Source: a virus
Direction: 5' to 3' (one strand)
Length of the DNA: 54,344 bases
Virus genome (UHGV): UHGV-0189308
Shown here: in pieces, positions 11,976-46,653 of the stretch
Layout of the letters: each line of letters starts with the position of its first letter
How positions within the stretch are numbered: the stretch's first letter is position 1
Translations under genes and position numbers: made by a program
Notes under the pieces: model-generated
Database searches by the model: none
The model's input: only the letters and a program-made list of their open reading frames with translations
Told to the model about the DNA's origin: nothing

Positions 11976-13083
11976 AAATAATATATCTATTCCAAATTTA
12001 TACCCGCTCTACAGTAGAAAGGTTAATAAAGTATACTGGCGTTATAAGCACCCGATAACTGGTAAGTTTCATAGTCTAGGAACAGATGAAGCAGAGGCCA
12101 CGGCAATAGCTATTGAAGCAAATAAAAGACTGGCGGAACAACAAACCCGCCAGATAATGGCAATCACTGACAGAATTTCCACCAACTCAGGAAAATCAAT
12201 ATCGACTAACACCTGGCTTGAACGTTACTGGAAGATTCAGCAGGAAAGATTAAAGTCCGGAGATATTAAAGAAAACACTATCAAACAAAAAGCAAAACCA
12301 GTATCTCTGCTTAAGGAGCGGGTAGGAATGAAATTAATATCCGCTGTCAATGTTCGAGATGTTGCGCAAATTCTTGATGAATATTTAGCGGAGGGACAAC
12401 CCAGAATGGCTCAGGTCATTCGCTCTGTCCTAATAGATGTTTTTAAAGAAGCTCAGCATGCGGGAGAAGTACCTCCTGGTTATAACCCTGCACTAGCAAC
12501 TAAACAACCTCGTAGAAAGATCACTCGCCAGCGCCTCACTCTTGAGGAATGGCAAAAGATTTTTGATATAGCCGATGAAAATCACAAATACATGGGGAAC
12601 GCCATGCTTTTAGCCATAGTAACAGGACAGCGACTAGGTGATATATCCCGTATGAAATTCTCGGACATCTGGGACGATCATCTACACGTTGAGCAAGAGA
12701 AAACCGGAAGCAAAATCGCTATACCATTAGCTCTGCGTTGCAACGCAATCAACTGGAGCCTCCGAGATGTAATCAGTCGTTGCCGGGATTATGCAGTAAG
12801 CCCTTATTTGGTTCATTTCTTTAGAACCACCTCACAGGCTGAGCGAGGAGCACAGGTGAAACCCAGAACACTGACCATGAATTTCAGCAAGGCAAGAGAC
12901 AGTGCAGATATTGACTGGGGACAAGGTACACCGGCAACTTTCCATGAACAAAGATCGCTTTCCGAGCGGTTATATAAAGCCCAGGGTATAAACACGAAAG
13001 ATTTACTTGGACATAAAACTCAACAACAAACGGATAGGTACCATGATGATCGTGGGAAGGGGTGGACAACGGTGGCCTTATGA
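11956..13083 (+). CDS. int: tyrosine integrase (lambda Int family)
   Basis: N-terminal arm-binding region similar to lambda Int (PNLY...YWRYKHPITGK). C-terminal catalytic region ...LLGHKTQQQTDRYHDDRGKGW resembles the lambda LGHKSDTMASQYRDDRGREW tail. Transcribed toward the icd fragment. Confidence 0.9.
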   Translation: MAARPRKNNISIPNLYPLYSRKVNKVYWRYKHPITGKFHSLGTDEAEATAIAIEANKRLAEQQTRQIMAITDRISTNSGKSISTNTWLERYWKIQQERLKSGDIKENTIKQKAKPVSLLKERVGMKLISAVNVRDVAQILDEYLAEGQPRMAQVIRSVLIDVFKEAQHAGEVPPGYNPALATKQPRRKITRQRLTLEEWQKIFDIADENHKYMGNAMLLAIVTGQRLGDISRMKFSDIWDDHLHVEQEKTGSKIAIPLALRCNAINWSLRDVISRCRDYAVSPYLVHFFRTTSQAERGAQVKPRTLTMNFSKARDSADIDWGQGTPATFHEQRSLSERLYKAQGINTKDLLGHKTQQQTDRYHDDRGKGWTTVAL

Positions 13084-13100
13084 GGTTTTTCGGGAGGGGT

Positions 13101-13133
13101 TTTGATAACTTGTTTTGATAAAATTTTGATAAC
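13101..13133. repeat. three direct TTTTGATAA repeats: candidate Int arm-type sites
   Basis: ggttttgataacttgttttgataaaattttgataacc lies immediately after the int stop. A fourth copy, cagttttgataactgg, is at about 13481-13497 on the far side of the icd fragment. Confidence 0.4.
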
Positions 13134-13199
13134 CGTTCGAAAACTAATAATAAAAACGGGAACCACCAGGTTCCCGTTCTGACATAATCTGTGGGCCAG

Positions 13200-13368
13200 A
13201 TTACATGTTCGCGATAATCGCGTCGCCAAACTCTGAACATTTCAGCAGTTTAGCGCCTTCCATCAGACGTTCAAAGTCATAGGTCACGGTCTTGGCGGCG
13301 ATAGCGCCTTCCATGCCTTTGACGATCAGGTCTGCGGCTTCGAACCACTGCATGTGGCGCAGCAGTAG
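13200..13368 (-). other. icd: icd (isocitrate dehydrogenase) 3'-terminal fragment: phage-borne replacement end / att core homology
   Basis: Minus-strand translation gives [53 protein letters not shown], nearly identical to the Icd C-terminus. No icd sequence continues upstream of 13368. Flanked by int on one side and AT-rich cargo on the other. Confidence 0.85.
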
Positions 13369-13599
13369 TTAACTAATAACATCATTACTTATTGATTTAA
13401 AAAGGAAAATAGGTGTTTTTGATATGTGGTTAATGTTTTTTGCCTAAGCCCTAACCTATTGAAATCCATTAATATATTTTCAGTTTTGATAACTGGCTTT
13501 GAGTTTTTCAGCTCATCTGGATAGAGAATTATTAGCCAATAATACTCACCCCCTGTGAGTCGGGTTAAATATTTCCGGTGTTATAAATCATGATTTGAA

Positions 13600-13631
13600 A
13601 AGAATATAAAAAAGCCTCAGAATCTGAGGCT
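13600..13631 (-). terminator. rho-independent terminator after the cargo operon
   Basis: Minus strand reads gcctcagattctgaggc hairpin followed by TTTTTTAT. Confidence 0.6.
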
Positions 13632-13673
13632 TGCATTGGAACCACCAACGCCATTATATTATTTAATTTCTAC

Positions 13674-13997
13674 CTACCATGTTATGATTGCTCTTTTCCA
13701 AACTATTTTCCCTTTTTTCTTTTCTTTTATATGCAGGATCCTTTTCATAATAAAATAAAAAATAAGAGAAAACACAATGATAGAAATATATGTCCCGATA
13801 CCGAAAGATACCAGAAAAACGACCAAGAACCCAAAGAGCGCTACCAGTAAAGATGTGCAGATAGATATCAAATTAATTTTCTTGCGTGCGTCTCTTGATA
13901 CATACCCTTTAATCTTAAATGCATGGCAACTGTGGCAGTGGTCCTCATTAATTAAATTTGCACCACAAAATGGACATTTATCATCTTTTGTCGTCAT
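13674..13997 (-). CDS. small membrane protein with N-terminal zinc ribbon (CPFC...HCHSCH) and two TM helices
   Basis: 107 aa. Low-GC codon usage like the two upstream genes. 5-nt gap to the EAL gene. Terminator downstream. Confidence 0.5.
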   Translation of the reverse strand: MTTKDDKCPFCGANLINEDHCHSCHAFKIKGYVSRDARKKINLISICTSLLVALFGFLVVFLVSFGIGTYISIIVFSLIFYFIMKRILHIKEKKKGKIVWKRAIITW

Positions 13998-14002
13998 TTA
14001 TT

Positions 14003-14794
14003 TTAAATCTCAACATAGTAGTAATCACTCATCCACAACCTTCCCTGGCAAGCGCAATCAACAACAGAATGTACTTTATTTTTTTGTTCTATTGTCTCAA
14101 CTCCCTCAACAATTACGAAATTGCAGTATGATTTTACTTCATTTAATATCTTAAATAATTTACTCTCATACTGTATTTCCCAGAAATAATCTTTATCGAT
14201 TTTTATACATTCAAAATTAAACATCTGAATAATTGTAATACTTGTTAAACCCCTCCCAAAATCATCCAGCCATACTGGACACAATTTCGAAAGACACTTT
14301 AAGTCAATCATACAGCATTTAGTATTAAATTCATGAAACTCTTCGTTAATCTCAAAGGCAATGTTTTTTTGTTTTTTTAAGTAATCGCTAATATATTTAT
14401 CATTCAAGATATAATCGCTAATTAGACTGTCAACATTCAACGAAACTGGCTTTAACTTCAATTTAGAAGCATCAATTTCTTCAATTGTCAATATCTGTTT
14501 ATTAAACAAATCGATTTTTTCTTTGTCACTTAGTGTGCTGAAACAAAAAGCACTTTCATTAGCAAGATAACCATTAGCATTCTTTTTTTTAACATTTTTC
14601 GTGAGAATTTCCCAAGAATGTACAGAACCATCTTTTTTGTAAGATGGTTCTAAAACAAATCTACAGGATTCTATTTCCACACTGTTCTTTATCATTAAAA
14701 AAACACCGGAACTAAGAATAATCCTAATCGTGTCATAATTAAATATGAAAGAGAAATAGTTTAAAATGATCGATAACGATCTAATGATAGGCAA
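14003..14794 (-). CDS. stand-alone EAL-domain c-di-GMP phosphodiesterase (PdeH/YhjH-like)
   Basis: Motifs WEILTK (EAL-type), VSLNVDS (Asn), EINEEF, WLDDFGRG, KIDKDYF, VIVEGVET, QGRLW. The segment LCPVWLDDFGRGL...VIVEGVETIEQ resembles E. coli PdeH. Real start is probably internal (about 14695). AT-rich. Confidence 0.7.
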   Translation of the reverse strand: MPIIRSLSIILNYFSFIFNYDTIRIILSSGVFLMIKNSVEIESCRFVLEPSYKKDGSVHSWEILTKNVKKKNANGYLANESAFCFSTLSDKEKIDLFNKQILTIEEIDASKLKLKPVSLNVDSLISDYILNDKYISDYLKKQKNIAFEINEEFHEFNTKCCMIDLKCLSKLCPVWLDDFGRGLTSITIIQMFNFECIKIDKDYFWEIQYESKLFKILNEVKSYCNFVIVEGVETIEQKNKVHSVVDCACQGRLWMSDYYYVEI

Positions 14795-15050
14795 AAGCTA
14801 TCATACTTTGTGTATCGATCGATTATTCAAATCAAATGAAAAGGAAGGTTAAAAAAGAAACATAATTTCAATATTAAAGCTATTTGGATCAGATAGTTGC
14901 ATTACGCGAATGACTTGGGTGGCAGATGTCCAATGTAAGTTGAAAGGCGCTTATGGTTTCGAAGAGATTTATCCTTGTTATAATTGTGGATAATAAACGT
15001 TCTTAAACATATATATGTATAAAATCATGAGATCAGAAATTATTTCATCA

Positions 15051-16130
15051 TCAATCATTCGGCATGCAATATCCATTCTTCCCATTACGTTTAACTTCAT
15101 ATAGCATTTTATCAGCCTCTTTAATCCACTCAATGATTGATTCTTTATTTTCTGCACAAGAAATACCGATACTGACAGTACAGTACATGTCTTTATGAGA
15201 AGGTAATGAAAGATCTTTAATTTTTTTCTGAATTATATGAACCATGGTTATAACATGCTTGCTATTACTGTTGTTAACAATAATAGCCAACTCATCGCCA
15301 CCAAATCTTGCTGGCACATCCTTCTCGCCAGCGCACTCTCGTAATATTGTTGATATACGAGATAACACCGCATCGCCAACTTCATGACCATATGTATCAT
15401 TAATTTTTTTAAAATTATCAACATCAATGAGCATAAGATATGAATGAATTCTCTTTTTACGCGTCGCACGAAAAGCACTTTCCATTTTCTGTTCAAAAAA
15501 GCGACGATTTGGCAGATCTAAGCCAGGATCCATTAGAGCCTGTTTTTCCAGTAACTCCCTTCTTTTCCTCAGCTTTAGAGATAAGTGCCTTGAAACAACA
15601 CTCAACACTATGGGATAACAGGTTGCCAACGGTAAAGAAAGTAATACCGTTCGGGTGCTGAATTCTATAGTATATCTGAAATCATTTGCTAACCAAACTA
15701 TCACGAAACTTATCATCATCCACGTTAATGCTGGTTTTAAAATTTTCCATCCACCAGCAGCATAGCGATCTGCTATTTGAACGGAGATTATAAATAATGA
15801 TGGAATTGGGCTAACTTGCATTACGGCTATCCAGATACCAGCCCAGAATGAATCGAGTACCATATTCTTTTTTTCAGTACTCAGCATATCCTTCGACATC
15901 ATGCTTGCCAGATAAGCAACCGATGGCCAGATGAGTGCATTCAAAATTAACAGGGCTATCGTTATTTTTTGATGTGACTGTTCCTGGAGGACTGAATATA
16001 TAGGAAGAAAGCAAAGAACGACACCTATCTGACGTAGAAAATATACTCGTTTAATAAACGATGAATTTCTGTCAGATATGTATTTTTCATCTGGGAATTT
16101 TGTTAACATAGAAAGCCTATTATAAATCAC
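15051..16130 (-). CDS. membrane-anchored GGDEF diguanylate cyclase
   Basis: N-terminal multi-TM region. C-terminal GGDEF domain with LMLIDVDNFKKINDTYGHEVGD and the active-site variant RFGGDEL. No RxxD I-site. Confidence 0.75.
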   Translation of the reverse strand: MIYNRLSMLTKFPDEKYISDRNSSFIKRVYFLRQIGVVLCFLPIYSVLQEQSHQKITIALLILNALIWPSVAYLASMMSKDMLSTEKKNMVLDSFWAGIWIAVMQVSPIPSLFIISVQIADRYAAGGWKILKPALTWMMISFVIVWLANDFRYTIEFSTRTVLLSLPLATCYPIVLSVVSRHLSLKLRKRRELLEKQALMDPGLDLPNRRFFEQKMESAFRATRKKRIHSYLMLIDVDNFKKINDTYGHEVGDAVLSRISTILRECAGEKDVPARFGGDELAIIVNNSNSKHVITMVHIIQKKIKDLSLPSHKDMYCTVSIGISCAENKESIIEWIKEADKMLYEVKRNGKNGYCMPND

Positions 16131-16494
16131 TAAGAGCCGCTATCACTTCAAACCACTAAATTACAAAATAAAACCGTCCTACATTACAAACTTATAACAT
16201 AGATGTGAAAATTACAAGATGGCACTTCAATTAACGATAAACGTATCAATAATAACATTTGACATCCATTTTCTTGAATCTATCTGTGCATTTTCAATCT
16301 GATGAAAGACAATAGTTTAGGGTTATATCCTTAAACATGAAAAGCCAACAGGATTTAGCACTATTTTATTATTGATTTTGGTAGATTATTAAAAAACGAC
16401 AAAACATCTGACCAGTAAAACTTTACTTGAACTTACTTATCGTTTACTGCAAATTATTCTGTGATGTACACAGCAATTAATGTCGTTTCAGTTG

Positions 16495-16526
16495 CCCCCG
16501 GCAAGTGCCTCCGGGGGATTTTTTAT
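16495..16526 (+). terminator. intrinsic terminator-like hairpin (plus orientation)
   Basis: cccccggcaagtgcctccggggg followed by attttttat. Located between the tail-fibre gene end and the cargo operon. Confidence 0.4.
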
Positions 16527-16531
16527 GCTCC

Positions 16532-17956
16532 TCAACTTTCTAGTGCGTCAAGTCGCCTAATCAAATCCTGCACCACTGTTACCAAATCGGCAATGATTGC
16601 CGTGTAATCCACATTCATCACCCTGAATTTTTCACCATCGATCTCCTGCTCGATGCCGGGGAAGGTATACAGGTCATCAACTTTCTCAGCTTGCTGGGCT
16701 ATAAACCCACGCCTCCTGCGTGTTTCGCCCTTCATATTGAACTCGCATACCCCGAGCGCATTAATGCGCCTGGAGGCCCCTTCCTGCGATTCAGTAAAAT
16801 CCTCTTTCAGTCGTAAATCTGAGCCGGTGGTCAGGACGTCACCCTTACCGGTGGAAATCGTGCCGCCAGCCCGGAAAATCCATGCGTCAGTACGTCCGAA
16901 CCCATCCGCGTACAGCACAAGCCGGTGCTCAGTCCCGACCTGCTCTTCCATGTACATCTGTACATAAGCGCCGTCCACGTCACCATAGGCCCCGCGCCCG
17001 GCCATCAATGAGCGTACCGGACTGGAGGTCAGTTGCGTTCCGATGGCTGGGTTTGCTGGCATGGTCGATGATGCTGTGATCCTCCCGTCCGTTACCCAAA
17101 AACTTTGTACCTGCGCGTTCAGGCGGTTCTGCCTGTCGTGGATAAGGCGAGCGGTATAATCCGCACTGCTGCCGTTGTAGTGGAAGTCAATGTAAGGCGT
17201 GCTCATTGACAGCTCGATCGCCTGCGTCAGAACCTTCCCCTTTGACGTGTTATCGATGTTGCCGCCAGCTGATAACCCACCGGGCAAAGTCGTCTGGTTA
17301 TCGGTCCCAATAACGAGGATGTCATCAAAGGTATCTGACGGTGACACAGTGGTCGCTCTTGAACGCTGAACCCTGAACGGTGTTCCCGAGCCAACGGCAA
17401 TTGTCCCGCCTTGCCCCTGTTTTTTGAGCAGAGCCAGATCTGAGTTCTTACCGAGGATAAAACCGGCATTATCGCTGGTTATAACCTGCGAGCCGTCGAG
17501 TTTGTTTCCTCCGGTGAGTTTTGCCAGCGCGTTAAGATCCGATGCCTTCGCCATCCCGCCTATCGCCGGCACGGTCACCTGCTTTCCGGTGATCGGGTCA
17601 GTCAGGGTGATATTGCCACTGCCGGTCAGGGCCATCGACCAGCCCTCCGCCACACTACGCCAGAATGCAAATGCGCTGGCCAGCTGGTTAGCAAACGACG
17701 AGGTACTGGCGGTTTCAGCGGTTATAATGCCGTAACTGGCGCCGGAAAATGCGGTGGTGATATTCCGGGTCAGCGTCAGTTGCGTGTCGCTGTCCACGGA
17801 TTTGATCGCATACAGGTCAGCACTACCGCTGCGGTAGACCACCAGAATCGACCCGGGCAGTATCCCCAGCGCCACCTGTGACCATTTTGTTGTCGCACCT
17901 GTCACCCGTGCCTGCGACGCTGCACCCGTGACGGTGCCGACTTCATACATCGCCAT
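16532..17956 (-). CDS. tail fibre/spike protein with C-terminal intramolecular chaperone (peptidase S74-like) domain
   Basis: C-terminal ...GSDLRLKEDF...RINALGVCEFNMKG...RRGFIAQQAEKVDDLY...VDYTAIIADLVTVVQDLIRRLDALE is typical of auto-cleaving fibre chaperone domains. Gly/Ser/Thr-rich beta-type body. Confidence 0.7.
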   Translation of the reverse strand: MAMYEVGTVTGAASQARVTGATTKWSQVALGILPGSILVVYRSGSADLYAIKSVDSDTQLTLTRNITTAFSGASYGIITAETASTSSFANQLASAFAFWRSVAEGWSMALTGSGNITLTDPITGKQVTVPAIGGMAKASDLNALAKLTGGNKLDGSQVITSDNAGFILGKNSDLALLKKQGQGGTIAVGSGTPFRVQRSRATTVSPSDTFDDILVIGTDNQTTLPGGLSAGGNIDNTSKGKVLTQAIELSMSTPYIDFHYNGSSADYTARLIHDRQNRLNAQVQSFWVTDGRITASSTMPANPAIGTQLTSSPVRSLMAGRGAYGDVDGAYVQMYMEEQVGTEHRLVLYADGFGRTDAWIFRAGGTISTGKGDVLTTGSDLRLKEDFTESQEGASRRINALGVCEFNMKGETRRRRGFIAQQAEKVDDLYTFPGIEQEIDGEKFRVMNVDYTAIIADLVTVVQDLIRRLDALES

Positions 17957-18017: not shown

Positions 18018-21000
18018 TTAGCTAAATGAACTGCTGTCCGTTCGGAAGGCGGTTGCGGTGATGTTCTCGACTGTGCAGGTGTAATCAATCGCGGCATTTC
18101 GACCTGTAGCCTTGATAAAGAAGCCGACATTGTTGTAGTCAGCATCCAGGCGCGCGGCAAACCGCAATTCAAAGGCCGTGGTGCCAGCTGTGATATTACC
18201 GGCATCGACGAAGATACGGCGGGTTACCTCCTGCCCACCAATGTTGAACGTAATATCAGAGGTATACCCCAGGCCACTGCCCGTCCCATAGGTCTGGCAC
18301 ACCAGGGTGCAGGCCAGAACCACTGTCATGCTATACCCCCTGTTCTGATACGCACCGTTCCGCTGTACCGTCTGGTTGCGGCGGAAGGTCAGGCTGTCGT
18401 AACCTTTTGCCACCGCAATGTCACCGATGAACGCATCCGCCTGGACAGTGCCACGGAACACGCCGCTATTCGCTTCGACCCTGCCACGAACGATCACGTT
18501 ATTGAACTGCGAAGAGCCATCCTTGGCGATACGCCAGCCTTGCGACCCGTCAACAAAGTTATTCGAGCGGATCTCGTTGCCGATCTTCGCGTTCGTGATG
18601 GAACCGTCCGCGATTTTGGTTGAGGTCAGGGAACTGTTTTTGATACGTGCCGTATCGATATACAGTTCATTGCCTTCGGCAATCATCACCGGCACTGCCG
18701 TCGCATTGTTACGGTTAAACAGCGAGAAGCGGTCGGCGTAGAGGATCATGTCGCTCGTTTCACCATTGCTGCCCAGCGTAATCCCCGCGCCAACATTCTT
18801 CCCGTTAACCGTCTCAACCTTCATCGACCACAGCGAACTCACCGTACCATTCACATCCGCCACGGTTTTAGCGGTGTTTTGAACGGAAGCGCTGAGATCC
18901 CCGACACTGGATGTCAGGGTCGTCTGCTGCGTTGCCAGCGCCTCCAGTGCCGTTGCATGCGTCTGCTGGGTACTGGTGATACTGGCCACCGATTTAATCG
19001 TGTTGTCCAGCGTCGTCTGGTTTTTGATGTTGGCGGCCGCCTGCGCGTCAATCTGCGACTGAAGCGAGGTATTCAGGCTGGCCTGTGTGCTCTGGCTGTC
19101 GCTCAGCGTTTTCGCCATGTTATCGACGCGGGAGTTGGCGTTATCCACTTTCGTGGCCAGTGCCGTCTGCTGCTGCGCCTGAGCGGTAATTTTCCCTTCG
19201 GCATCCGTTACGCGCGCCGTCAGGCCGCTCACGGCGCTCGCCGTCGCGTCAGAGGCATCCTGTGCCGCTTTCGCATCGGTAACATCCGTGATGACCAGAT
19301 CGTCGATATACAGTGAATAGCCAGGGGTACCGTTGCCGGTGGCGCCACGGGTGGAGATCCAGACCACCGCGCGTGTTCTGCCCGCCCCGTTGTTACTGGC
19401 GATACCCGTGAATTTCACCCACTTATCGCGCGCGCCCAGAGAGGCTTCGCTGACAGTGACCGCCGCCTGCCACGCATTTTGCCCGGCAGCATTCTGCGAC
19501 TGGATACCGACCAGCGTTGTCCACCCGGAGGAGGGCGCCTGATCCGCCGGCATCATGGCCCAGAACTCAAACCGGAACTTCGCGTCCTCACGGACTGACT
19601 GCCAGGTGCCAAGCTGTTTATCACTGTTGCCGCTGTTGTTCTCATCCCGTCTCAACTTCAGGCTCTTACCGCCGGTGAATTTCTGAGACACCACCACAAC
19701 GGCGGTGCCGTTCCCGCCCAGCACCTGGCCATCGCTGTAGCTTTCAAACGTACCGTCAACCCACGGATTAGCTCCCTGAGTGCGGATGGTATTGATGGTG
19801 CTGGTCAGCGACGTGATGCTCTGCGACTGGCTGGTGATGGTGTTTTCCACCTGGCTTACGCGACCGGTCAGTGAACTCACCGCGGACGTGTCAGCCTTTT
19901 TACCCAGCTCCGTATTCATCGTGGTCAGGCTGTTCTGCAGACTGGTGAGCTGCTGCGACTGCGAATCCAGTTTACCCTCGGCAGACGTCATCCGGGTGGT
20001 CAACCCGGTGACAGCGCTTTGCTCTGCTTTCTGACTGACCGCCGCATTCGTGACGGCCAGATCGCCGCTGAGTTTCGTCAGCTGCTGCGCCTGGGTGGTG
20101 ATAGCCCCTTCCGCAGCGGTGACGCGGGTATTCATCTGTGAGATGGCCCCGGCATTAGCAGCGATATCCTTTTCATCCGTAACATCGAGGACATGGAAAT
20201 CATCAAAATACATTGCCCCCGCGCTGAGGAAGGTTGTCAGCTGGAAACTGGCCGTCGTGGTCTTCGTGGCTTTCCAGTCAAACGTTACCAGTTGCCAGCC
20301 AGAACTAAACGGTCCGTAGTTTGAGCCAACCAGCAGGCCAGTGCTGTCGGCCACACGAAACTTCGTGTTACCCGCATCTTTAATCGTGGTCCCCGGGTCC
20401 TGCTTCGCCCATACCCCCATGCGGTAGGTACGGCCCTGCGTGATACTGATTTCCTGTCCGACCAGGTTCGACTGGCCGGCGGACATTTTCAGCGCCTTGT
20501 TACCCGAGTGCGGAACCTGTAAATCGGCCACCGTCGCGGTACTGCTCCAGCCGGTAAAGCCCGCCGCGCCGCGCTCAAAACTGCCGTTGACAATGAGGTT
20601 GCCCGGCATTTTCCCGCTGGCGTCAATATCCGCTGCCGTCTGGCTCAGGCTGTTACTCAGTTGCGTCAGAGAATCCCCCTGCGCACTGAGTGTTTTGCCC
20701 TGCTCCGTGACCTGGTTCTGCAGGGTGTTCATCGCGCTTGCATCCGCTTTTTTGTTCACGTTCGCATTCGTCGTGGCCAGATCGCTGCTGAGTTTTGTCA
20801 GCGCGCTGTTAGCTGCCGCGATGTCATTCCCCTGCTGCGTCACCGTGCCCTGCAGCTGCGTCACCGCTGTCGTGTCAGCCTTTTTACTCACCGTATCGTT
20901 TGTCGACCGGAGGCTGTTCTCCAGCGAGGTGGTCCGCGTGCCGATGCTGCTGAGCGTATCGCCCTGCTGGCTAACCGTGGTGGTCAGTGAATCCACCGCT

Positions 21001-24000
21001 TTTGCGGTCGCATCTGCGGTTTTCTGCGCACTGTTCGCTGCCGTCACGTTACGCATATGCCAGTCGGCAGCGTACCAGACGGTGCCGAACGGGCTGCTCT
21101 GATTAACCTGCAGGAACGGCCGCAGCAAGCTGGTATCGGATGGCACCGTAAAGCGCCAGGTGGCTCGTTTCCACGCGGTGGTGGTCCTGGTGTTGCCCCC
21201 GGACGCTTTCGCTCCGATACCACCGGTGGCGGTGGTGGCCCGACCGATATAGAAGTTAAAGTCAGCGCTGCCGGTACCACACGCTACCAGAGCAGACATT
21301 TCGAAAACGTCGCCCGGCGTCACGGCGATATTGTTGATTTTTGGCACATGGTCTCGCCCGGCCAGCCGGACGGCATACCTGAACGGGCAGTCAGCCGGCA
21401 CACCATCGGCGGTGGTCTCCACCACGTCATAACCCATGCGGTCATACGCCGGATCAAATGACGGGTTTGGAATGTAATCATCCCCGGCAGCATTCCCGGC
21501 GTTCACCGCTGCCGTCAGGCTGACAATGTTGCTGTTGGCTGCCGTGAGGCCTGCCTCGGTTTTCTCCACCCGGCCAGTCAGCGCGTTAAGCGCCGTCTGA
21601 TCCGCTTTGGTGTTGACCTTATCGGTGGTGCTGCTCAAATCGCCCTGCAGCTTCGTGATAGCCTGCCCCTGGGCGGTGATTTTGCCTTCCGCACTGGTGA
21701 CCCGGCTGGTGAGATCACTCACCGACTGCGCGCTGGCCTTTTGTGCCACGTTGTTGTTGGTGGTGTTCAGGCTGTTCTGCAGATTCGTGATGCTCTGAGA
21801 CTGCGCGGTCAGTTGCCCCTCGGCGTTCGTCACCCGACTGGTGAGGCTATTAATGGCCGATGTGTTCGCGGTAATACCGCTGGCCGCATCATCCGGACTC
21901 GGTGACCAGTCGGTCAGCACGGTCCCGGTTTCCAGCTGAGGGCGGCAGAGCCAGACTTCTTTGTCGGCAGACGTCGCGCTTTCCAGACGCGCGGCAATCA
22001 GCCGTTTGGTGCCACTGGTGGCAGGAATAACCCATTTCACCCAGTAACGCGCCCATGCGGTGGTCAGTTTCGTGACCGCCTTGCCGTCACCGGCCCCGCC
22101 TTTAACGCCCTGGCTGGTTTCCGTGGTGGTGGTGTTCGATGGGTTATAGAAATAACTCGCCATCTCCTGCCCGTCATAAGCCCCTTTCGCATAGAAGCTG
22201 AATACAAATTCCGTACGCCCGGTAACTTCCAGCGTCTGTTCATCCAGTTGGGTAAAACCGGATGCACCTTTCGCCAGCCGGGTGTAGGCCACGCGGTCGC
22301 CCAGATAGGTCTCTGTGGCGTGGCGGCTGCTCCATCCCTCCAGTGTGTCCGCATTGCGGATAAGGTTGGTCCCGCCCACGGCCAGGGAGGAAAAGTTGTT
22401 TTCCAGGTTCGTCAGCGCGCTGCTTTGCGTGGTCAGATCCCTGCCATGCTGTTCAACGGTATTCTGCAGGCTCTGCAGCGCCGTTGCATCAGCCTTCTTC
22501 GCCACATTGCTGTTGGTCGTGTTCAGGCTGTTCTGCAGGCTGGTCAGGCTGTCTCCCTGCGATCTCAGGCTGCCTTCGGTAGCCGTCACGCGAGTCGTCA
22601 GATTCGTCAGCGCGCTGGCATCGGCCTTGCCGCTGATATCCTTTCCTAGTTGCGTCACATCTGACTGCAGTTTCGTGATCGCGCTGCCCTGAGACGTAAT
22701 ATTCTTCCCGTTCTGCGTGACTGACGCGGACAGACTGGAAAGCGCCTGCGCATTCGCATCGGCGGCATCGAGCGCCGCTTTCGCATCGGTCACGTCAGTG
22801 ATGATCAGATCATCAATCAGGAAGGCGTCACCCAGGCGAACTTTTGGTGTGTTCGGGATGGAGATCCTCACCATTGCCTGTTTCAGCGCGGTTCGGTTGT
22901 TGGTCAGATAGCCACTGACTTTTGTCCAGTTGTCCACCGACAACCCGGAGACTTTTACGTTCAGGCCAGGCCACGACCAGCCATTGGCAGAATCCTGGAA
23001 GGAAAATCCGAGCACCATATAAACGGTCGGATCGGCGGTCGAGCCAGCCGGCAACTTAACCCACGCCTCCACGTAATAGACCGCGTTATCGCGAACCTGC
23101 ATGCCCGAAAAGATATGGGTATCGTTATTATCCGTCGCGTTCGGGTTGTACTCCGTACTGCGCGTAACACGCAGGCTTTTAGTCCCGCTGTGCGCAGCTT
23201 CACTGGTGATAACGGCGCGGGCATTACTGAGAACATCGCCGACGGCATAGGATTCAAAACTGCCGTCCGGCAGTACGTTGGCTCCCCGTGTCGCCTGCTG
23301 CTTCAGCGATGTATTCAGGCTGGTCAGGCTGTCGGCCTGGCTACGGATATCCTTTTCAGTCTGGGTAACCCGGTTGGTCAGTGAACTGACCGCCGACGCA
23401 TCGGCCTTCTTCGCCACATCGCCTTTGACCCCTTCCAGCGCGTTTTTCAGCGCCGTGATGGATTGCCCCTGCGATGTCAGGGTGTTCCCCTGGTTCGTCA
23501 CCGTCCCGGTCAGAGACGAAACAGCATCGCTGGTCGCCTTGATGTTGGTTTCATCGGTGATATCAAACACCCGGACGGAATCGAGCCAGATTTCACCGTT
23601 TGTCGGATGAGAATAAAGTTTGAAGTTCTGCCCGTCCGCGCCGGCAGCCGTCAATCCGGTTTCCCAGGTGATGGTTTGCCAGTCAGTGGTCAGCGTGACC
23701 GTTTTATCCTCATACGTACTGTCCGTCTGGCCGATTTTGTTCTGGCGACGGATCAGCAGACTCATCGCGCCGGAAACACCTTTGGCCTTCACCACCACCC
23801 GGTACTTGCGCTGGCCATTCAGCGGCACCGGCTTGTTGTTGTTGGAGAAGATCCCCGGACTGGTGTTAGTCGTCCGGTTCAGTCGGACCCCCGCTTTCCC
23901 GTCCCCGAAATCGCCAAAGGTCACACCGGCAGGATACTGAATATCCCAGGCCGTGCTGCCCTGCAGAAAATCAAAGTTCGGGATCAGGTTGTCGCCGGCG

Positions 24001-27000
24001 TTGCGGGTGGCCGTCAGCACATTCGCCAGATTTGTCAGCTGCTGGCTCTGTGTGGTCAGTTTCCCTTCCGCCTCTGTCACCCGGTTATCGACCGAAGTCA
24101 GTGCCGTTGCATCGGCCTTCTTCGACACATTGCTGTTGGTCGTGTTCAGGCTGTTCTGCAGGTTCGTCAGCTGCTGGCTTTGTGAGGTGATGGCCCCTTC
24201 CGCTGTGCTGACCCGGCTCGTCAGTCCGGTAACGGCGCCGGCGGTGGCATCGATGTCCACCCGGTCGGTAACGTCAGTGACGTAAAAGTCATCGAAGTAG
24301 CGGCTGCCGCTAATCAGATAGTTACTCAGCGTCACCGGCAGGCTGGCTGTCTCCGTCGCTTTCCAGCGACCGGAAATCAGGGTCCAGTTTGTCCCCACCG
24401 TACCGCTGTTGTATGGACGCTCAAAAACCGGCTGGCCGGCAGAGTTGCCGATCCGCAGCTTGTTGTTCCCCGCGCCATTATCCGTCGTCGCTCCGGGTTC
24501 CTTGACCCACACCCCGATTTCATAGGTTCGCCCCTGAATAAACGGGATGTATTGCCCCGGAGTCACATTCCCCGGATCAACCTTCAGCGCCCGCGTCCCG
24601 CTATGAGGAACGGAAACCTCCACCACACTGGTCGCGGTTGACCGCCCGGCGTAACCATCCAGCCCACGTTCAAACGAGGGATTCACGACCAGGTTACCCG
24701 GTATCTGCCCGCTGGCATCGATATCTGCCGCGACGTGCGAGAGGCTGTTCGACAGGTTCGTCAGCGAATTGCTCTGGCTCTCCAGCGTTTTGCCCTGCTG
24801 CGTCACTTTCGTGTCGAGCGTGGCCAGCGCTGTCGCATCGGCTTTCTGCGCCAGCGCTTTATCGGTATTCGCCAGATTTCCGGTCAGTTTCGTGATGGCG
24901 CTGTTCGCAGCCGTCAGGTCGTTGCCCAGCTGTGTGACGGTATTGGTCAAATTCTGCACCGCTGTCGCATCAGCCTTTTTGGCCACTGCGGCATTGGTGG
25001 TTGCCAGCCCGTTTTCCAGCTGGGTTGTCCGGTTGCCGGTCGAGGTCAGCAGATTACCCTGTTGCGTCACGGTGGTGGTCAGGGAGTCAACCGCCGCCGC
25101 CGTGGCATCCGCAGTATCCTGAACCTTTTGCGCCGCTGTCACATTTCGCATATGCCAGTCCGTAACGAACCATACGGTGCCATACGGGCTGTTCTGCGAG
25201 ATCTGCAGGAACGGGCGGATATAACCCCTGTCCACCATCGCCTGCGTGACCTTGAAGCGCCAGGTGGTTCTCTGCCAGGTCGCGGAGGGTGATTTCCCGC
25301 CCCCCGCCATGAGTGGCGCACCGGTGCTCGTATCTGGCCGAACGGCGGTGCCAACATACAGATTAAAATTCGCCGTGCCGGCGCCGCAGGCAACCAGTGC
25401 GCTGATCTCAATCACATCGTTAAGCGTGGCCGGGAACGCGGCAAACTCAGGATGGTGATCCCGGCTGGCAATTCGGGCCGCATAACCATACGGGCAGCCA
25501 GGAGGGACCTCCTCAGCCGTCGTGGATACGACGCTAAACCCCATCTGGTCGTAAGCCGGGTCAAATGTCGGGTTGGGAATTAAATCTCCGCCTGATGCGT
25601 TTCCGGCCCGTACAGCGGATTTCAGCGAGGTAATGTTGGCGTTAGCAGCCGTTAGCCCGGATTCCGTTTTCTCCACTCGTCCGGTTAGCGAGTTCATCGC
25701 CGTCTGATCCGCTTTGCTGGCCACGTTCACGTCTGTCTGCGTCAGCGCATTCCGGAGTTGGGTGATGCTCTGCGAATTGCTGACCACCTCGTTGCCAATC
25801 TGGCTGACATTCGAGCTGAGCACGCCGGCTGCGTTTGCCAGCGCGGATACCCCGAGACCGGAGTACATCTCAGCAACCTTGTCTGACAGCTTCAGGCCCA
25901 GGTTGATATACGCCTGGCCGGTCCACTGATTCACCAGAAATTCAACGGTGTTCCAGCCGCCTTTCAGTTCAAAACTGACGGTATTCCAGCTGGCGTTACC
26001 CCAGGCGACCTGAACCCCGTTCACAAATATGGCGCCGGTATCATCAAAAACCCTGGCGCCGGGCGCCAGTGTGATGGTGGTATCTGCGGCCACTTTCACC
26101 TGGCAGGAATACAGCGCGATCAGATAGCTGCCGGCGGACGTAAAGTCCAGTTTGGCCGCGTCGGCCACCTCATCCACGACCGTTGGTGCCACAGCGCGAA
26201 CATCGCTGAATGACGGGACTGTCCCGGCGTTAGCCAGCTGCACCGGATAGAGTCGACGGGACCAACGATTCGGCTGGCCATTGACCAGTTGATTCGACAG
26301 GCTGGTGATGCTGTCAGTATTGCTGCGAATATCCCGCCCGTTTTGCTCTACCTGCTGCGTTAAGGCAGTGACCGCAGCCGCTTCGGCTTTCTTCGCCAGC
26401 GCGGCATTTGTCGTGCCCAAATCGCTCGTCAGTTTCGTGATGGACTGACCCTGGTTGGTTATCCTGTCGCCCTGCCGGGTAACAACAGACTGCAGCCCGC
26501 TCAGCGCCTCATTCGTACCAGCCAGGCCCGTTTCCGTCTGGCCAACCCGGTTAGTAAGCGATGTTAACGCGGCGCCCTGCGATGTCAGCGTGGCGCCCTG
26601 TTGCTCAACTTTCTGCGTCAGGGACGTCAGCGCGGCCGCATCGGCTTTTTTCCCGAGGCTGGTTTCCAGGCCACCGATACGGCTCGCCTGCGCGCTCTGC
26701 TCTGTCGTCAGAGAACTCAGTTCACCAGAAACAGCAGCTTTGTTGTCGTTAAACTGCGTCTGCAGGGACTCTCTGGCCTTAACTTCCGCCGAGATGGCGG
26801 TAACGCGCGCGGTTTTTTCCTGGTACAGCAGCCCGGAGGTGACTTTCTCCAGATCGCTCCCATCATAGGAGCCACGCATCTGCGCCGCCAGCGTGCTGCG
26901 TGCCTGCGCTTCGGCGGTCAGCGCGTTACTCAGCGTACTGCGCACATCCTGCAGAGCCGCCGTACTGGCGCCGGGTGCTGGCCGGCCAACGGCGATCCAG

Positions 27001-46013: not shown

Positions 46014-46333
46014 TGCTTACCTCCACGACGATGACGTGAACGGCGACCACCGGGAACCATTGTCTGTTGTTCCTGCACCAACTCCCCCTCTAAAGGCTCC
46101 TGATCCAGTGCAGGTGATGAAACAGGGGCCGGAGCAATATCATGTGCAATCGTCAGTTTCAGCAGTGGGCGGCCGCCCTGGACATGCTCAAAATGGATGC
46201 CATGTACGGCTTCATTCATTCGTGACTGACCATCCGTCTCCAGAACGGTCAAAACACCATCAACGTATTCAATTTTGAAACTCTTCATCGGGTTCTCTCT
46301 GTTGCTGTTTTCTTGCTGTGGCAGGTCCAGCAC
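46010..46333 (-). CDS. small protein, paralog B (MKSFKIEYVDGVLTV...)
   Basis: Probable start MKSFKI (about 46288), abutting the HNH stop. N-terminus paralogous to the small ORF upstream of HNH. Confidence 0.4.
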   Translation of the reverse strand: MLDLPQQENSNRENPMKSFKIEYVDGVLTVLETDGQSRMNEAVHGIHFEHVQGGRPLLKLTIAHDIAPAPVSSPALDQEPLEGELVQEQQTMVPGGRRSRHRRGGKQ

Positions 46334-46653
46334 AATGACTCCAGATTAAAGTCATCATCGGTACCGCCATGAGCTTTAGGAATGATGTGGTCGACACTTG
46401 AGGCTTTCGTGGCAATACCGTCTCGCCTGCAGTTCTGACAAAGGTATTTATCCCTCTTCATGATACGGGCCCGTTTAATTTCCCACGGTCGACCATAACC
46501 ACGTTCCTGCCGAGTTTTTCCGGGCTGATAGTTACGCCAGCCATCACCAGCGTGTTGCTGCCTATGCATCTCACAGTATCCTCCGACATCATTGGTCACA
46601 GCCGTGCATCCTCTGTGCCGGCAAGGTCGTTTAGCTCGTGGCGGCATAAACAT
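46285..46653 (-). CDS. HNH endonuclease (terminase-associated)
   Basis: CxxC...HIIPKAHGG...N...CWTCH HNH/zinc motif. Typical location upstream of TerS in HK97-like cos phages. Confidence 0.8.
   Translation of the reverse strand: MFMPPRAKRPCRHRGCTAVTNDVGGYCEMHRQQHAGDGWRNYQPGKTRQERGYGRPWEIKRARIMKRDKYLCQNCRRDGIATKASSVDHIIPKAHGGTDDDFNLESLCWTCHSKKTATERTR

What the first reader, a model, noticed from the sequence alone, without database searches (positions are those of the whole stretch)
13674..16130. Low-GC c-di-GMP cargo operon in the b-region position: GGDEF cyclase, PdeH-like EAL phosphodiesterase, zinc-ribbon membrane protein
Three co-oriented, tightly spaced genes with strikingly lower GC than the surrounding phage DNA sit between the tail-fibre genes and attP. 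They end at a strong terminator. The cyclase keeps the DxD/GGDEL catalytic residues and the EAL protein keeps essentially all catalytic motifs. The set therefore encodes an antagonistic c-di-GMP make-and-break pair plus a small membrane partner. It could be lysogenic conversion of host motility or biofilm, or a nucleotide-signal-based exclusion module of the kind predicted for GGDEF-centred conflict systems.
Basis: partly seen in the sequence, partly recalled or inferred. Interest (0 to 1): 0.6.

Follow-up and report, generated by a model that had tools for sequence, protein, structure and literature searches.

The report
Mobile c-di-GMP gene cassette in Klebsiella phage
A Klebsiella temperate phage carries, between its tail-fibre gene and its integration site, an optional AT-rich cassette encoding a c-di-GMP-making enzyme, a c-di-GMP-degrading enzyme and a small zinc-ribbon membrane protein; it most likely re-tunes the lysogen's biofilm and surface signalling, and no known anti-phage system was detected in it.

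Summary
Three co-oriented minus-strand genes lie between the tail-fibre gene and attP (an icd 3' fragment), at GC 0.33 against 0.52 for the rest of the window, and end at a good terminator. They are a MASE2-GGDEF cyclase (GGDEL, no RxxD I-site), a PdeH-type stand-alone EAL enzyme with every catalytic residue, and a 107-aa zinc-ribbon/2-TM protein.

One correction: this is not a single tight operon. A 355-nt spacer separates the cyclase from EAL-ZnR, and its last ~170 nt are conserved better than the coding sequence.

The block is genuine optional phage cargo. It is present in circularised phage copies and in 34 sibling prophages, and absent from empty-site siblings. It also occurs on plasmid pKP187 and as a chromosomal islet in Raoultella. 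All three genes are intact and under purifying selection.

The pair was listed in 2008/2012 (KPK_3356/3355) but not recognised as phage cargo, and I found no functional test of it.

The best reading is lysogenic conversion of host c-di-GMP signalling with separately controlled make and break arms. A nucleotide-signal defence system is not supported: PADLOC finds nothing, distant ZnR relatives stand alone, and EAL-ZnR occurs without the cyclase. The leader resembles a Dam/OxyR phase-variation switch, but this is untested. Moderate interest.

The parts
16485..16525 (.). Upstream boundary hairpin of the cassette (CCCCCGG-N9-CCGGGGG, -14.3 kcal/mol). It is followed by a T-run only on the + strand, so it reads as a terminator for + strand (antisense) transcription and at most a weak stop for late tail transcription.
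   Evidence: Sequence; fold; conserved together with the cassette in unrelated contexts L116, L003 and L130.
16110..16484 (-). Conserved AT-rich upstream region of the cyclase, with a promoter-like core TTGTAA (16217-16212), a 15-nt spacer, then TATAAG/TATAAT (16196-16191).
   Evidence: The cross-context alignment shows CTTGTAA and TATAA invariant in phage, plasmid, Enterobacter and Raoultella copies. The promoter assignment is inferred; the consensus scan of the whole 13000-16700 region was at chance level (17 found against 16.6 expected).
15051..16109 (-). Membrane diguanylate cyclase: MASE2 domain (about 5 TM segments, residues 22-173) plus GGDEF domain with a GGDEL active-site variant and no RxxD inhibitory site.
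   Evidence: Pfam; NCBIfam best hit AdrA at 189 bits against a 402 cut-off; PDB alignments; GGDEL invariant in 30 alleles and in nearly all relatives at 43-59% identity; dN/dS 0.095; hydropathy.
14871..15050 (-). Poorly conserved 5' half of the cyclase-EAL spacer.
   Evidence: Alignment of 8 diverse loci.
14696..14870 (-). Hyper-conserved leader of the EAL-ZnR unit. It has OxyR-like half-sites A (14823-14809), B (14801-14787, ATAGCTTTTGCCTAT) and C (14779-14765). GATC sites begin at 14817, 14778 and 14768. The invariant 22-nt core is at 14754-14775.
   Evidence: 32 distinct leader alleles; retained in GGDEF-less copies L126 and L128; OxyR consensus 14/20, equal to the agn43 operator, shuffle P 0.035; the core is unique in the window and occurs only on cassette-bearing viral contigs; no Rfam family; no covariation.
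14003..14695 (-). Soluble stand-alone EAL c-di-GMP phosphodiesterase (PdeH-like, E-I-L motif) with the complete catalytic residue set.
   Evidence: Pfam, NCBIfam PRK11596 at 85.6 bits against a 190 cut-off; invariant catalytic columns; AF2 model pLDDT 88 with the EAL fold, nearest neighbours YdiV/STM1697 at TM 0.72-0.78; dN/dS 0.25.
13674..13997 (-). 107-aa protein: N-terminal zinc ribbon (CPFC-x9-CHSC), two TM helices (about 40-91) and a conserved basic C-terminal tail KGKxVWKRAIITW. Its start lies 5 nt after the EAL stop.
   Evidence: Alignments; dN/dS 0.30; only 14 representatives at E<1e-3 among 1.84 billion proteins; low-confidence model showing a small beta ribbon plus a helical hairpin; hydropathy.
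13612..13632 (-). Intrinsic terminator that ends the cassette.
   Evidence: conserved in phage, plasmid and Enterobacter copies.
13201..13500 (-). Flank: attP region, comprising the icd 3' fragment (13201-13368) and the P-arm with the Int arm-type site GTTATCAAAAC (about 13487). More arm-type repeats lie at 13100-13140.
16532..17956 (-). Flank: side tail-fibre gene immediately upstream of the cassette.

Best explanation
The region is a self-contained, horizontally mobile 'moron' cassette of about 2.9 kb (13612-16525). It is inserted between the side tail-fibre gene and attP of a lambda-like, icd-integrating Klebsiella temperate phage.

It has two expression units. Unit 1 has its own conserved promoter region and a membrane MASE2-GGDEF cyclase of the GGDEL, I-site-less subfamily. 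That enzyme should make c-di-GMP from GTP without product feedback. Unit 2 has a hyper-conserved ~170-nt leader, a soluble PdeH-type EAL phosphodiesterase that linearises c-di-GMP to pGpG, and a translationally coupled zinc-ribbon/2-TM inner-membrane protein. A terminator follows.

Expressed from the prophage, the two antagonistic enzymes shift the lysogen's c-di-GMP pool up or down depending on which unit is on. This would change c-di-GMP-controlled outputs of Klebsiella, such as type 3 fimbriae via MrkH, cellulose and other exopolysaccharides, and biofilm. The function is therefore lysogenic conversion.

Shown: the anatomy, the cargo status, mobility, intactness, purifying selection, and conservation of catalytic residues and of the leader. 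Inferred: enzymatic activity (especially of the GGDEL cyclase), expression in lysogens, the downstream targets and the role of ZnR. My best guess for ZnR is a membrane anchor or modulator of the EAL enzyme, or an independent membrane moron that has become co-expressed with it.
For: Optional phage cargo. The window has the attP arrangement xis/int-icd'-ZnR-EAL-GGDEF-tail fibre. The same arrangement occurs in circular 53-kb and 70-kb records deposited as plasmids. Of 79 tail-fibre-related prophage loci, 34 carry the module, and 3 siblings at the same icd site have only ~166 nt between tail fibre and icd'. The order J-tail fibre-GGDEF-EAL-ZnR-icd' holds in about 35 IMG/VR prophages.

Foreign origin. 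GC is 0.33 against 0.52.

Own signals. The upstream region and both boundary hairpins travel with the genes into other phages, plasmid pKP187, Enterobacter and the Raoultella chromosome.

Functional constraint. Intact copies number 43/43, 47/47 and 28/31, with dN/dS 0.095, 0.25 and 0.30.

Enzymology. The cyclase has the metal- and guanine-binding residues and D at the GTP-specificity position. The EAL protein has all catalytic residues invariant and a confident EAL-fold model.

Two units. A 355-nt spacer has a conserved 3' half that is retained upstream of EAL where the cyclase is absent.

Precedent. DgcX is a horizontally transferred, prophage-adjacent cyclase that raises cellulose production (PMC10459773).
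Against: No expression or activity data exist for any member that I could find. GGDEL departs from the canonical GG[D/E]EF, and I found no activity measurement for a GGDEL enzyme; one paper only assumes 'restricted' activity (PMC12900916). A constitutively co-expressed cyclase/phosphodiesterase pair would be futile, so the model depends on differential regulation that has not been shown. The AT-rich DNA may be H-NS-silenced in lysogens (inference from general knowledge). The role of ZnR is unexplained, and its distant relatives have no link to c-di-GMP genes. The nearest solved structures to the EAL protein are the non-enzymatic YdiV and STM1697.
Confidence: 0.58

Rival explanations
1. Phage-exclusion by surface remodelling. 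The cassette's selected function is to change the lysogen's susceptibility to other phages. Lowering c-di-GMP (EAL on) or raising it (cyclase on) would switch off or mask a c-di-GMP-dependent surface glycan or fimbrial receptor, possibly in only part of the population. This is a special case of lysogenic conversion.
For: In E. coli, c-di-GMP is required for N4 infection: seven phosphodiesterases were top gain-of-function resistance hits, and PdeL protects by lowering c-di-GMP (PMC7553319; PMC8669472). The cassette sits beside the receptor-binding tail fibre and attP, the same neighbourhood as the phase-variable gtr O-antigen modification genes of P22, which limit superinfection (PMC7380047; PMC2909390). 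The leader resembles that kind of switch.
Against: No receptor or target phage is known for Klebsiella. The same trio is a fixed chromosomal islet in Raoultella and lies on a large IncFIB plasmid, where a general signalling role fits as well. PADLOC finds nothing. The phage already carries a bona fide defence system, Gabija, elsewhere.
Confidence: 0.2
2. Nucleotide-signal abortive-infection system. The GGDEF enzyme makes a signal, the ZnR-2TM protein is a membrane-disrupting effector gated by that nucleotide, and the EAL enzyme resets or buffers the signal. This would be analogous to CBASS, Pycsar or Panoptes systems with 2-TM effectors.
For: The gene set formally resembles cyclase + small TM protein + nucleotide-degrading enzyme. 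The GGDEF domain gives weak Cas10-palm matches (Pfam PF22335 E 5e-5, PADLOC Cas10 E 7e-3), as any GGDEF domain does. The location is a prophage accessory region.
Against: There are no significant PADLOC matches for any of the three proteins. The cyclase is a full MASE2 sensor cyclase. Its closest relatives outside the cassette are chromosomal proteins in Pantoea, Erwinia and Acinetobacter, and the one Pantoea locus examined is a solitary gene. The cyclase has the canonical D at the GTP-specificity position. ZnR relatives occur alone, without cyclase or EAL. EAL-ZnR occurs without the cyclase, and cyclase-EAL occurs with a decayed ZnR (L004). The three parts therefore do not behave as an obligate system.
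Confidence: 0.06
3. The EAL protein is not primarily an enzyme but a YdiV/STM1697-like protein-binding regulator, and ZnR is its membrane partner or target. The cyclase is then an independent neighbour.
For: The closest solved structures by sequence and by fold are YdiV/CdgR and STM1697, at TM 0.72-0.78 and rmsd 2.6-3.0. EAL and ZnR are translationally coupled and co-inherited down to 39% ZnR identity.
Against: All catalytic residues that YdiV and STM1697 have lost (DDFG, EGVE) are invariant here. The best family model is the active enzyme PdeH. The known YdiV/STM1697 target is FlhD, the flagellar master regulator, and Klebsiella is classically non-flagellate (background knowledge).
Confidence: 0.08
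4. It is an ordinary host locus caught at a prophage border by mis-delimited prophage prediction, and is not phage cargo.
For: A homologous intact trio sits at a fixed chromosomal site (cls/yciY-yciI) in Raoultella without phage genes. R. scottii has a chromosomal copy. An earlier prophage survey described a diguanylate cyclase as a host gene at a prophage border (PMC7371120).
Against: In the window the cassette lies inside the phage, between tail fibre and attP on the phage side of the icd core. Circularised phage genomes contain it. Siblings at the same att site lack it. The pKP187 and L116 copies still carry tail-fibre or attP/icd' remnants, showing transfer together with phage DNA.
Confidence: 0.03

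Closest known systems
DgcX of E. coli O104:H4 / EAEC (horizontally transferred, prophage-adjacent diguanylate cyclase)
   Same: An accessory membrane cyclase that travels with prophages and sits next to a phage attachment site. Its documented effect is raised cellulose production (PMC10459773). It is the best functional precedent for lysogenic conversion of c-di-GMP signalling.
   Different: DgcX is a single gene with MASE4 (not MASE2) and a canonical GGEEF. It has no paired EAL gene, no ZnR gene and no conserved leader. E. coli lacks this cassette.
AdrA / DgcC (MASE2-GGDEF cyclase of E. coli and Salmonella)
   Same: Same two-domain architecture and similar length. It is the best NCBIfam hit, aligning over residues 24-352.
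   Different: The score is 189 bits against the 402-bit equivalog cut-off, so it is not an orthologue. It belongs to a distinct subfamily marked by GGDEL and no RxxD. AdrA is a core gene, whereas this one is mobile and AT-rich.
PdeH (YhjH), stand-alone EAL phosphodiesterase
   Same: A short, soluble, EAL-only protein. It has an E-[IL]-L motif in place of EAL, a complete catalytic set, and PdeH is the best family model (PRK11596).
   Different: The score is 85.6 bits against a 190 cut-off. PdeH belongs to the flagellar regulon (background knowledge). This protein is coupled to a ZnR membrane protein and preceded by a unique leader.
YdiV / STM1697 (degenerate EAL-like anti-FlhD4C2 factors)
   Same: Nearest solved structures by sequence and by fold, and the same short enterobacterial EAL-only clade.
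   Different: Those proteins have lost DDFG and EGVE and act by binding FlhD. This protein keeps every catalytic residue.
Dam/OxyR phase-variable horizontally acquired loci: P22 gtrABC, opvAB, agn43
   Same: gtr is likewise a phage moron that is expressed in lysogens. Its switch has three OxyR half-sites with GATCs in the outer ones and the promoter just downstream (PMC2909390). The leader here has a strong central half-site (9/10) flanked at 7-nt spacing by GATC-bearing sequences. Its OxyR score equals that of the agn43 operator.
   Different: Entirely untested here. The outer half-sites are weak (5/10 and 3/10). Only two GATCs are invariant, and GATC clustering is not significant on its own (P 0.09). 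The cargo is signalling enzymes, not surface-modifying enzymes.
KPK_3356/KPK_3355 and KPK_A0039/A0040 of Klebsiella variicola 342
   Same: pKP187 carries the same cassette at 90% DNA identity over the full length. A copy from IMG genome 643348560 (L105) may be the strain's chromosomal pair, but I did not confirm this. The pair was listed as strain-specific cyclase/phosphodiesterase genes (PMC2453333; PMC3431978).
   Different: Those papers did not recognise the phage context, the third gene or the leader, and attributed the genes to plant association. No function was tested.

Membership tests
Active GGDEF diguanylate cyclase | A-site motif GG[D/E]EF | tested here: inconclusive
   The motif is GGDEL (F to L). 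It is invariant in 30 alleles and in nearly all relatives at 43-59% identity, so it is a conserved subfamily variant and not decay. I found no activity measurement.
Active GGDEF diguanylate cyclase | Metal-binding Asp residues and guanine-binding Asn/Asp (PleD D327/D329, N335, D344 equivalents) | tested here: met
   DVDNFKKINDTYGHEVGD aligns with solved cyclases. D is present at the specificity position, so the enzyme is not a Hypr-type cGAMP synthase (PleD numbering from background knowledge).
Active GGDEF diguanylate cyclase | RxxD allosteric inhibitory site (common but not obligatory) | tested here: not met
   The sequence GEKD replaces RxxD five residues before GGDEL, and the site is absent throughout the subfamily.
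AdrA (NCBIfam NF007599 equivalog) | Score at or above the curated 402-bit cut-off | tested here: not met
   189.4 bits. The MASE2+GGDEF architecture is shared.
Active EAL c-di-GMP phosphodiesterase | Catalytic and metal-binding set: E of EAL, N, ExxE, DD, K, E of EGVE, Q, plus the loop-6 DFG motif | tested here: met
   E29, N87, E115/E118, D144-D145-F146-G147, K165, E197/E200 and Q217 are invariant or nearly invariant across 17 family members down to 33% identity. The position four residues after the E of EAL is K or R.
Active EAL c-di-GMP phosphodiesterase | EAL (TIM-barrel-like) fold | tested here: met
   AF2 model pLDDT 88.1, pTM 0.86. There are 102 PDB matches at E<=1e-3, and the 50 best listed are all EAL domains.
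PdeH (NCBIfam NF008617 equivalog) | Score at or above the curated 190-bit cut-off | tested here: not met
   85.6 bits.
Phage moron (accessory cargo cassette) | Present or absent among otherwise related phages at the same genome position | tested here: met
   34 loci have the module, and 3 icd-integrated siblings have about 166 nt between tail fibre and icd'.
Phage moron (accessory cargo cassette) | Own promoter and terminator, and deviant base composition | tested here: met
   GC is 0.33 against 0.52. The conserved upstream region and the terminator travel with the genes across contexts. Promoter activity itself is inferred.
Dam/OxyR phase-variation switch (agn43, gtr, opvAB type) | GATC sites lying within OxyR-binding half-sites next to the promoter | tested here: inconclusive
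   The OxyR consensus score is 14/20, the same as the agn43 operator (P 0.035). Half-sites score 5/10, 9/10 and 3/10 at 7-nt spacing. GATC-1 and GATC-3 are conserved in all 32 leader alleles of the cyclase-bearing copies and in the cyclase-less copies L126 and L128; GATC-2 is variable.
Dam/OxyR phase-variation switch (agn43, gtr, opvAB type) | Alternative heritable methylation states and ON/OFF subpopulations | not testable with these tools
   This needs methylome data (SMRT or Nanopore) or reporter fusions.
Known anti-phage defence systems (PADLOC-DB v2) | Significant match of any component to a defence-system model | tested here: not met
   The cyclase gives only marginal Cas10-palm matches (E about 7e-3). 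EAL and ZnR give none. The same library recognises Gabija elsewhere in the window with E values from 0 to 1e-265.
Cyclic-nucleotide signalling defence (cyclase + TM effector, CBASS/Pycsar/Panoptes-like) | Obligate co-occurrence of the cyclase with its effector across relatives | tested here: not met
   ZnR relatives are solitary. EAL-ZnR occurs without GGDEF. The one Pantoea GGDEL relative examined (P0109) is a solitary gene.
Zinc-ribbon proteins | Two CxxC (or CxxC/CxxH) knuckles about 10 residues apart | tested here: met
   C8, C11, C21 and C24 are invariant in 15 homologues and kept in distant relatives. No Pfam model matches, and metal binding is inferred.

The most novel reading that the evidence does not exclude
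The leader-EAL-ZnR unit is an epigenetic (Dam/OxyR-type) bistable switch, and ZnR is a new kind of membrane partner of a c-di-GMP phosphodiesterase. The prophage would then split a clonal Klebsiella population into heritable low- and high-c-di-GMP subpopulations that differ in biofilm and fimbriae production and in susceptibility to other phages. That would be a phage-borne bet-hedging device acting through a second messenger and not through direct surface modification.
Probability: 0.17. Interest if true: 0.72.

Novelty: new variant of a known kind. Interest (0 to 1): 0.45.

Why it matters
Klebsiella pneumoniae biofilm and type 3 fimbriae are controlled by c-di-GMP and matter for catheter and gut colonisation. 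This cassette is common: the protein clusters hold hundreds to more than a thousand member sequences. It moves between prophages, plasmids and chromosomes. [quoted passage not shown] It also offers a compact natural system for asking three questions. How can an antagonistic make/break pair be useful as cargo? What does the conserved GGDEL variant do catalytically? Does a very small, sparsely distributed zinc-ribbon membrane protein family have a role in second-messenger signalling or in phage exclusion?

Tried and rejected
- **Known RNA element in the spacers.** Rfam at E<=1 over 13000-16700 found no riboswitch or sRNA there. It gave only a sub-threshold STnc150 match near int and a spurious miRNA hit.
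- **Structured RNA leader.** RNAalifold on 8 diverse leaders gave 0 compensatory pairs. The block is too invariant to test.
- **Leader peptide.** A 13-codon uORF whose stop overlaps the EAL ATG exists in the window but is broken in L004, so I rejected it (my reading of the alignment).
- **Kp4865-4 as an empty-site control.** Its record ends 170 nt after the tail fibre, so it is uninformative. I replaced it with the tail-fibre-anchored survey.
- **Identity with the 2025 Klebsiella 'DgcG'.** Rejected: DgcG is an HmsT-like, highly prevalent 348-aa protein with four TM segments, only 26% similar to AdrA.
- **E. coli homologues (DgcY, PdeY and others).** There are no DNA matches in 5,426 complete E. 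coli genomes, apart from an EAL gene on a plasmid in two J53 strains named KPC_Vir. The Povolotsky & Hengge paper is not held.
- **ZnR structure.** The model has pLDDT 64.5, too low for a fold search.
- **Portable regulatory element.** The 22-nt leader core occurs only on cassette-bearing viral contigs.
- **GATC enrichment.** The module as a whole is not enriched (10 sites against 9.3 expected), and the 3-in-60-nt cluster has P 0.09.
- **Activity data for MASE2-GGDEL enzymes.** I found none.


Full report
**What is there.**

- 15051-16130. The likely start is the ATG at 16109, giving the 352 aa that RefSeq annotates in near-identical records.
- 14003-14695, which is 230 aa from the ATG.
- 13674-13997, which is 107 aa.

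Pfam calls the first MASE2 + GGDEF and the second EAL; the third has no family. GC is 0.33 over 13612-16531, against 0.52 for the rest of the window and 0.56-0.58 for the adjacent tail genes. GC3 is 0.29-0.36 against 0.63-0.69. A 9-bp, -13.1 kcal/mol hairpin with a T6 tail follows the third gene.

Upstream lies a tail-fibre gene (Peptidase_S74 C-terminus) and a 4198-aa J-like protein. Downstream lie a 55-codon 3' fragment of icd and a lambda-type integrase reading towards it. This is the attP arrangement of an icd-integrating phage of the e14/phage 21 type (background knowledge), so the 'b-region' description is correct.

One sub-claim fails. Only EAL and ZnR are tightly spaced (5 nt). The cyclase and EAL are 355 nt apart.

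**The proteins.** The cyclase best matches AdrA at 189 bits, far below the 402-bit equivalog cut-off. Aligned to solved cyclases, it keeps the metal- and guanine-binding residues and has Asp at the GTP-specificity position. Its signature is GGDEL, however, and the RxxD inhibitory site is replaced by GEKD.

GGDEL is not decay. It is invariant in all 30 distinct alleles and in nearly all relatives at 43-59% identity from Pantoea, Erwinia, Acinetobacter and Kosakonia, which also lack RxxD. A Pantoea member has been catalogued as 'MASE2-GGDEL' (PMC8294551). I found no activity measurement, and one paper merely assumes restricted activity for GGDEL (PMC12900916).

The EAL protein best matches PdeH/YhjH at 85.6 bits against a 190 cut-off. 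All catalytic positions are invariant or nearly so across 17 family members down to 33% identity: E29, N87, E115/E118, D144-D145, K165, E197/E200 and Q217. Its AlphaFold model is confident (pLDDT 88) and has the EAL fold. The nearest solved chains are the short enterobacterial EAL-only proteins YdiV and STM1697 (TM 0.72-0.78), but those have lost the DDFG and EGVE motifs that this protein keeps.

The third protein has an invariant CPFC-x9-C(H/Q)SC zinc ribbon, a hydrophobic hairpin of two helices (about residues 40-91) and a strongly conserved basic tail, KGKxVWKRAIITW.

**Is it phage cargo?** Yes, in this window. Five lines of evidence agree.

1. Two records deposited as non-mobilizable plasmids are circular copies of this phage. 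These are the 53-kb p2562_5 of K. michiganensis and the 70-kb pKpnB3_1. Both show xis-int-attP-ZnR-EAL-GGDEF-tail fibre-J in the same order.
2. About 35 IMG/VR prophages show J-tail fibre-GGDEF-EAL-ZnR-icd', usually ending at the icd stop as expected for attR.
3. A survey anchored on the tail-fibre protein found 34 loci with the module and 28 uninformative records. It also found 17 loci without the module. Three of those are integrated at the same icd site with only ~166 nt between tail fibre and icd'. The block is therefore an optional insertion between the tail-fibre stop and the attP P-arm, which carries the shared arm-type site GTTATCAAAAC.
4. The cassette carries its own signals. About 420 nt upstream of the cyclase, including a GC-rich hairpin and a CTTGTAA...TATAAT core, travels with the genes, as does the downstream terminator. 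They accompany the genes into a different phage type beside yedK (L116), Enterobacter wuhouensis (L003), plasmid pKP187 (L130) and partly the Raoultella chromosome.
5. The pKP187 copy still has the 3' end of the tail-fibre gene and the attP/icd' stub. L116 has an icd' remnant. Those copies therefore came from an icd phage.

The cassette is not exclusively phage-borne. In Raoultella an intact trio sits at a fixed site between cls/yciY and yciI with no phage genes nearby, at GC 0.36 against 0.55 in the left flank.

**Is it functional?** All 43 cyclase copies and all 47 family EAL copies in the fetched loci are full length. ZnR is intact in 28 of 31, truncated in R. scottii and shorter in the L128/L129 lineage. 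Median pairwise dN/dS is 0.095 for the cyclase, 0.25 for EAL and 0.30 for ZnR. Some truncated database entries exist, but pseudogenisation is clearly not the rule.

**Two units, and a remarkable leader.** Alignment of the cyclase-EAL spacer shows a poorly conserved 5' half. The 3' ~170 nt are almost invariant, even against R. scottii, where the proteins are 61-74% identical and dS exceeds 2.

The same block precedes EAL in copies that have no cyclase at all: R. planticola L126, and K. pneumoniae L128 beside an IS1 and a filamentous prophage. In those loci, homology to the window begins 120-180 nt before the EAL start. So leader + EAL + ZnR is a self-contained unit, and the cyclase with its own upstream region is a second unit.

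Rfam finds nothing in the leader. RNAalifold finds no covariation. The 22-nt invariant core occurs only on cassette-bearing viral contigs.

The block contains ATAGCTTTTGCCTAT, a 9/10 match to the OxyR half-site. It is flanked at 7-nt spacing by sequences that carry GATC sites. GATC-1 and GATC-3 are kept in all 32 leader alleles and in L126 and L128. The 37-nt OxyR consensus is matched at 14/20, identical to the genuine agn43 operator scored in the same way (shuffle P 0.035 against 0.02).

This layout recalls the P22 gtr switch. That switch has three half-sites A, B and C with GATCs in A and C and the promoter just downstream, and gtr is a prophage moron expressed in lysogens (PMC2909390; PMC7380047). 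But the outer half-sites here are weak (5/10 and 3/10), and GATC clustering alone is not significant (P 0.09). I treat phase variation as a hypothesis with roughly 0.3 probability.

**The small protein.** A full HMM scan of 1.84 billion representatives found only 14 relatives at E<1e-3. All share the design of zinc ribbon, two TM helices and a basic W-K-R/K tail. Three distant relatives were examined in context. One sits directly after xis-int at a prophage end and two lie in chromosomal islets; none has an EAL or GGDEF neighbour. ZnR is therefore not an obligate c-di-GMP component. Its 3-5-nt coupling to EAL is specific to the Klebsiella/Raoultella lineage, though there it persists down to 39% ZnR identity.

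**Mechanism.** The best-supported reading is lysogenic conversion of host c-di-GMP signalling by a two-armed cassette. One arm is an I-site-less membrane cyclase. The other is a PdeH-type phosphodiesterase, under separate and conserved control.

The closest documented precedent is DgcX of E. coli, a horizontally transferred, prophage-adjacent cyclase that raises cellulose production (PMC10459773). A related possibility is that the selected phenotype is altered phage susceptibility. In E. coli, c-di-GMP is required for N4 infection, and over-expressed phosphodiesterases protect against it (PMC7553319, PMC8669472).

A CBASS- or Panoptes-like nucleotide-gated abortive-infection system is not supported. 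PADLOC is negative for all three proteins, although it detects a complete Gabija system elsewhere in this window. The three components also do not co-occur obligatorily.

**What is known already.** The cassette on pKP187 of K. variicola 342 (KPK_A0039/A0040) matches at 90% identity over the full length. That pair, and the 96%-identical chromosomal KPK_3356/3355, were listed in 2008 and 2012 as strain-specific cyclase/phosphodiesterase genes. They were tentatively linked to plant colonisation and plasmid-chromosome exchange (PMC2453333, PMC3431978). A 2020 prophage survey deposited a prophage record cut inside this cyclase, and elsewhere described a diguanylate cyclase as a host gene at a prophage border (PMC7371120).

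None of these papers recognised a phage moron, the third gene or the leader, and I found no functional work. The 2025 Klebsiella 'DgcG' is a different, HmsT-like core gene.

**Verdict.** The finding is a new variant of a known kind, namely prophage-borne c-di-GMP turnover genes, with three unexplained and testable features. These are the conserved GGDEL cyclase subfamily, the rare ZnR membrane protein and the hyper-conserved GATC/OxyR-like leader. Interest is moderate.

Noticed in passing
window 19-1923 (+) and 1920-3584 (+): A complete Gabija anti-phage system is carried by this phage: GajA (PADLOC 1095 bits, full length) and GajB (880 bits), with overlapping stop and start.
   Followed up: partly
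window 18018-30614 (-): A single 4198-aa J-like central tail protein (DUF1983 in related records) with long internally repeated segments. It is unusually large for a siphovirus tip protein.
   Followed up: no
window 13000-13188 (+): A sub-threshold Rfam match to the Hfq-binding sRNA STnc150 (41 bits against a gathering score of 60, model 83-267). It overlaps the integrase 3' end and a 12-bp hairpin at 13153-13180 next to the icd' stop.
   Followed up: no
window 13100-13140 and about 13487: Repeated GTTATCAAAAC motifs lie on both sides of the icd' core. They are probably arm-type binding sites of the lambda-like integrase, and they are shared with empty-site sibling prophages.
   Followed up: partly
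L131 (NZ_CP116219.1) and L132 (NZ_CP030728.1): Two records deposited as non-mobilizable plasmids (53 kb and 70 kb) are circular copies of this phage genome with xis-int-attP-cassette-tail genes. They may be excised or replicating phage DNA, or assembly products.
   Followed up: partly
L085, L088, L089, L090: An integrase or integrase fragment lies directly beside the J/tail-fibre genes, followed by the intact cassette. These look like decayed or rearranged prophage remnants that kept the c-di-GMP cargo.
   Followed up: no
L128/L129 (K. pneumoniae JACJHE010000021.1): A 65%-identical EAL gene with its leader and a shorter ZnR-like ORF, but no cyclase, lies between an IS1 fragment and a filamentous prophage (Zot, secretin, Rep_trans, G5P).
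   Followed up: partly
L002 (JBEBQJ010000099.1): A contig binned into a 'Sphingobacterium yanglingense' MAG carries the cassette with a 100%-identical EAL protein plus a tail-fibre end and icd'. It is almost certainly a mis-binned Klebsiella phage contig.
   Followed up: no
H41/H42 (E. coli J53 strains named KPC_Vir, plasmids NZ_CP158675.1 and NZ_CP157326.2): The only E. coli matches are an EAL gene 73% identical at the DNA level, on large plasmids in two J53 strains whose names suggest KPC/virulence-plasmid transconjugants. EAL relatives therefore also ride on large plasmids.
   Followed up: no
window 46285-46653 (-): A small ORF with an HNH-endonuclease-like Cys/His pattern lies next to the low-GC patch at 47.0-48.5 kb. 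That patch holds two small ORFs with no PADLOC match.
   Followed up: no
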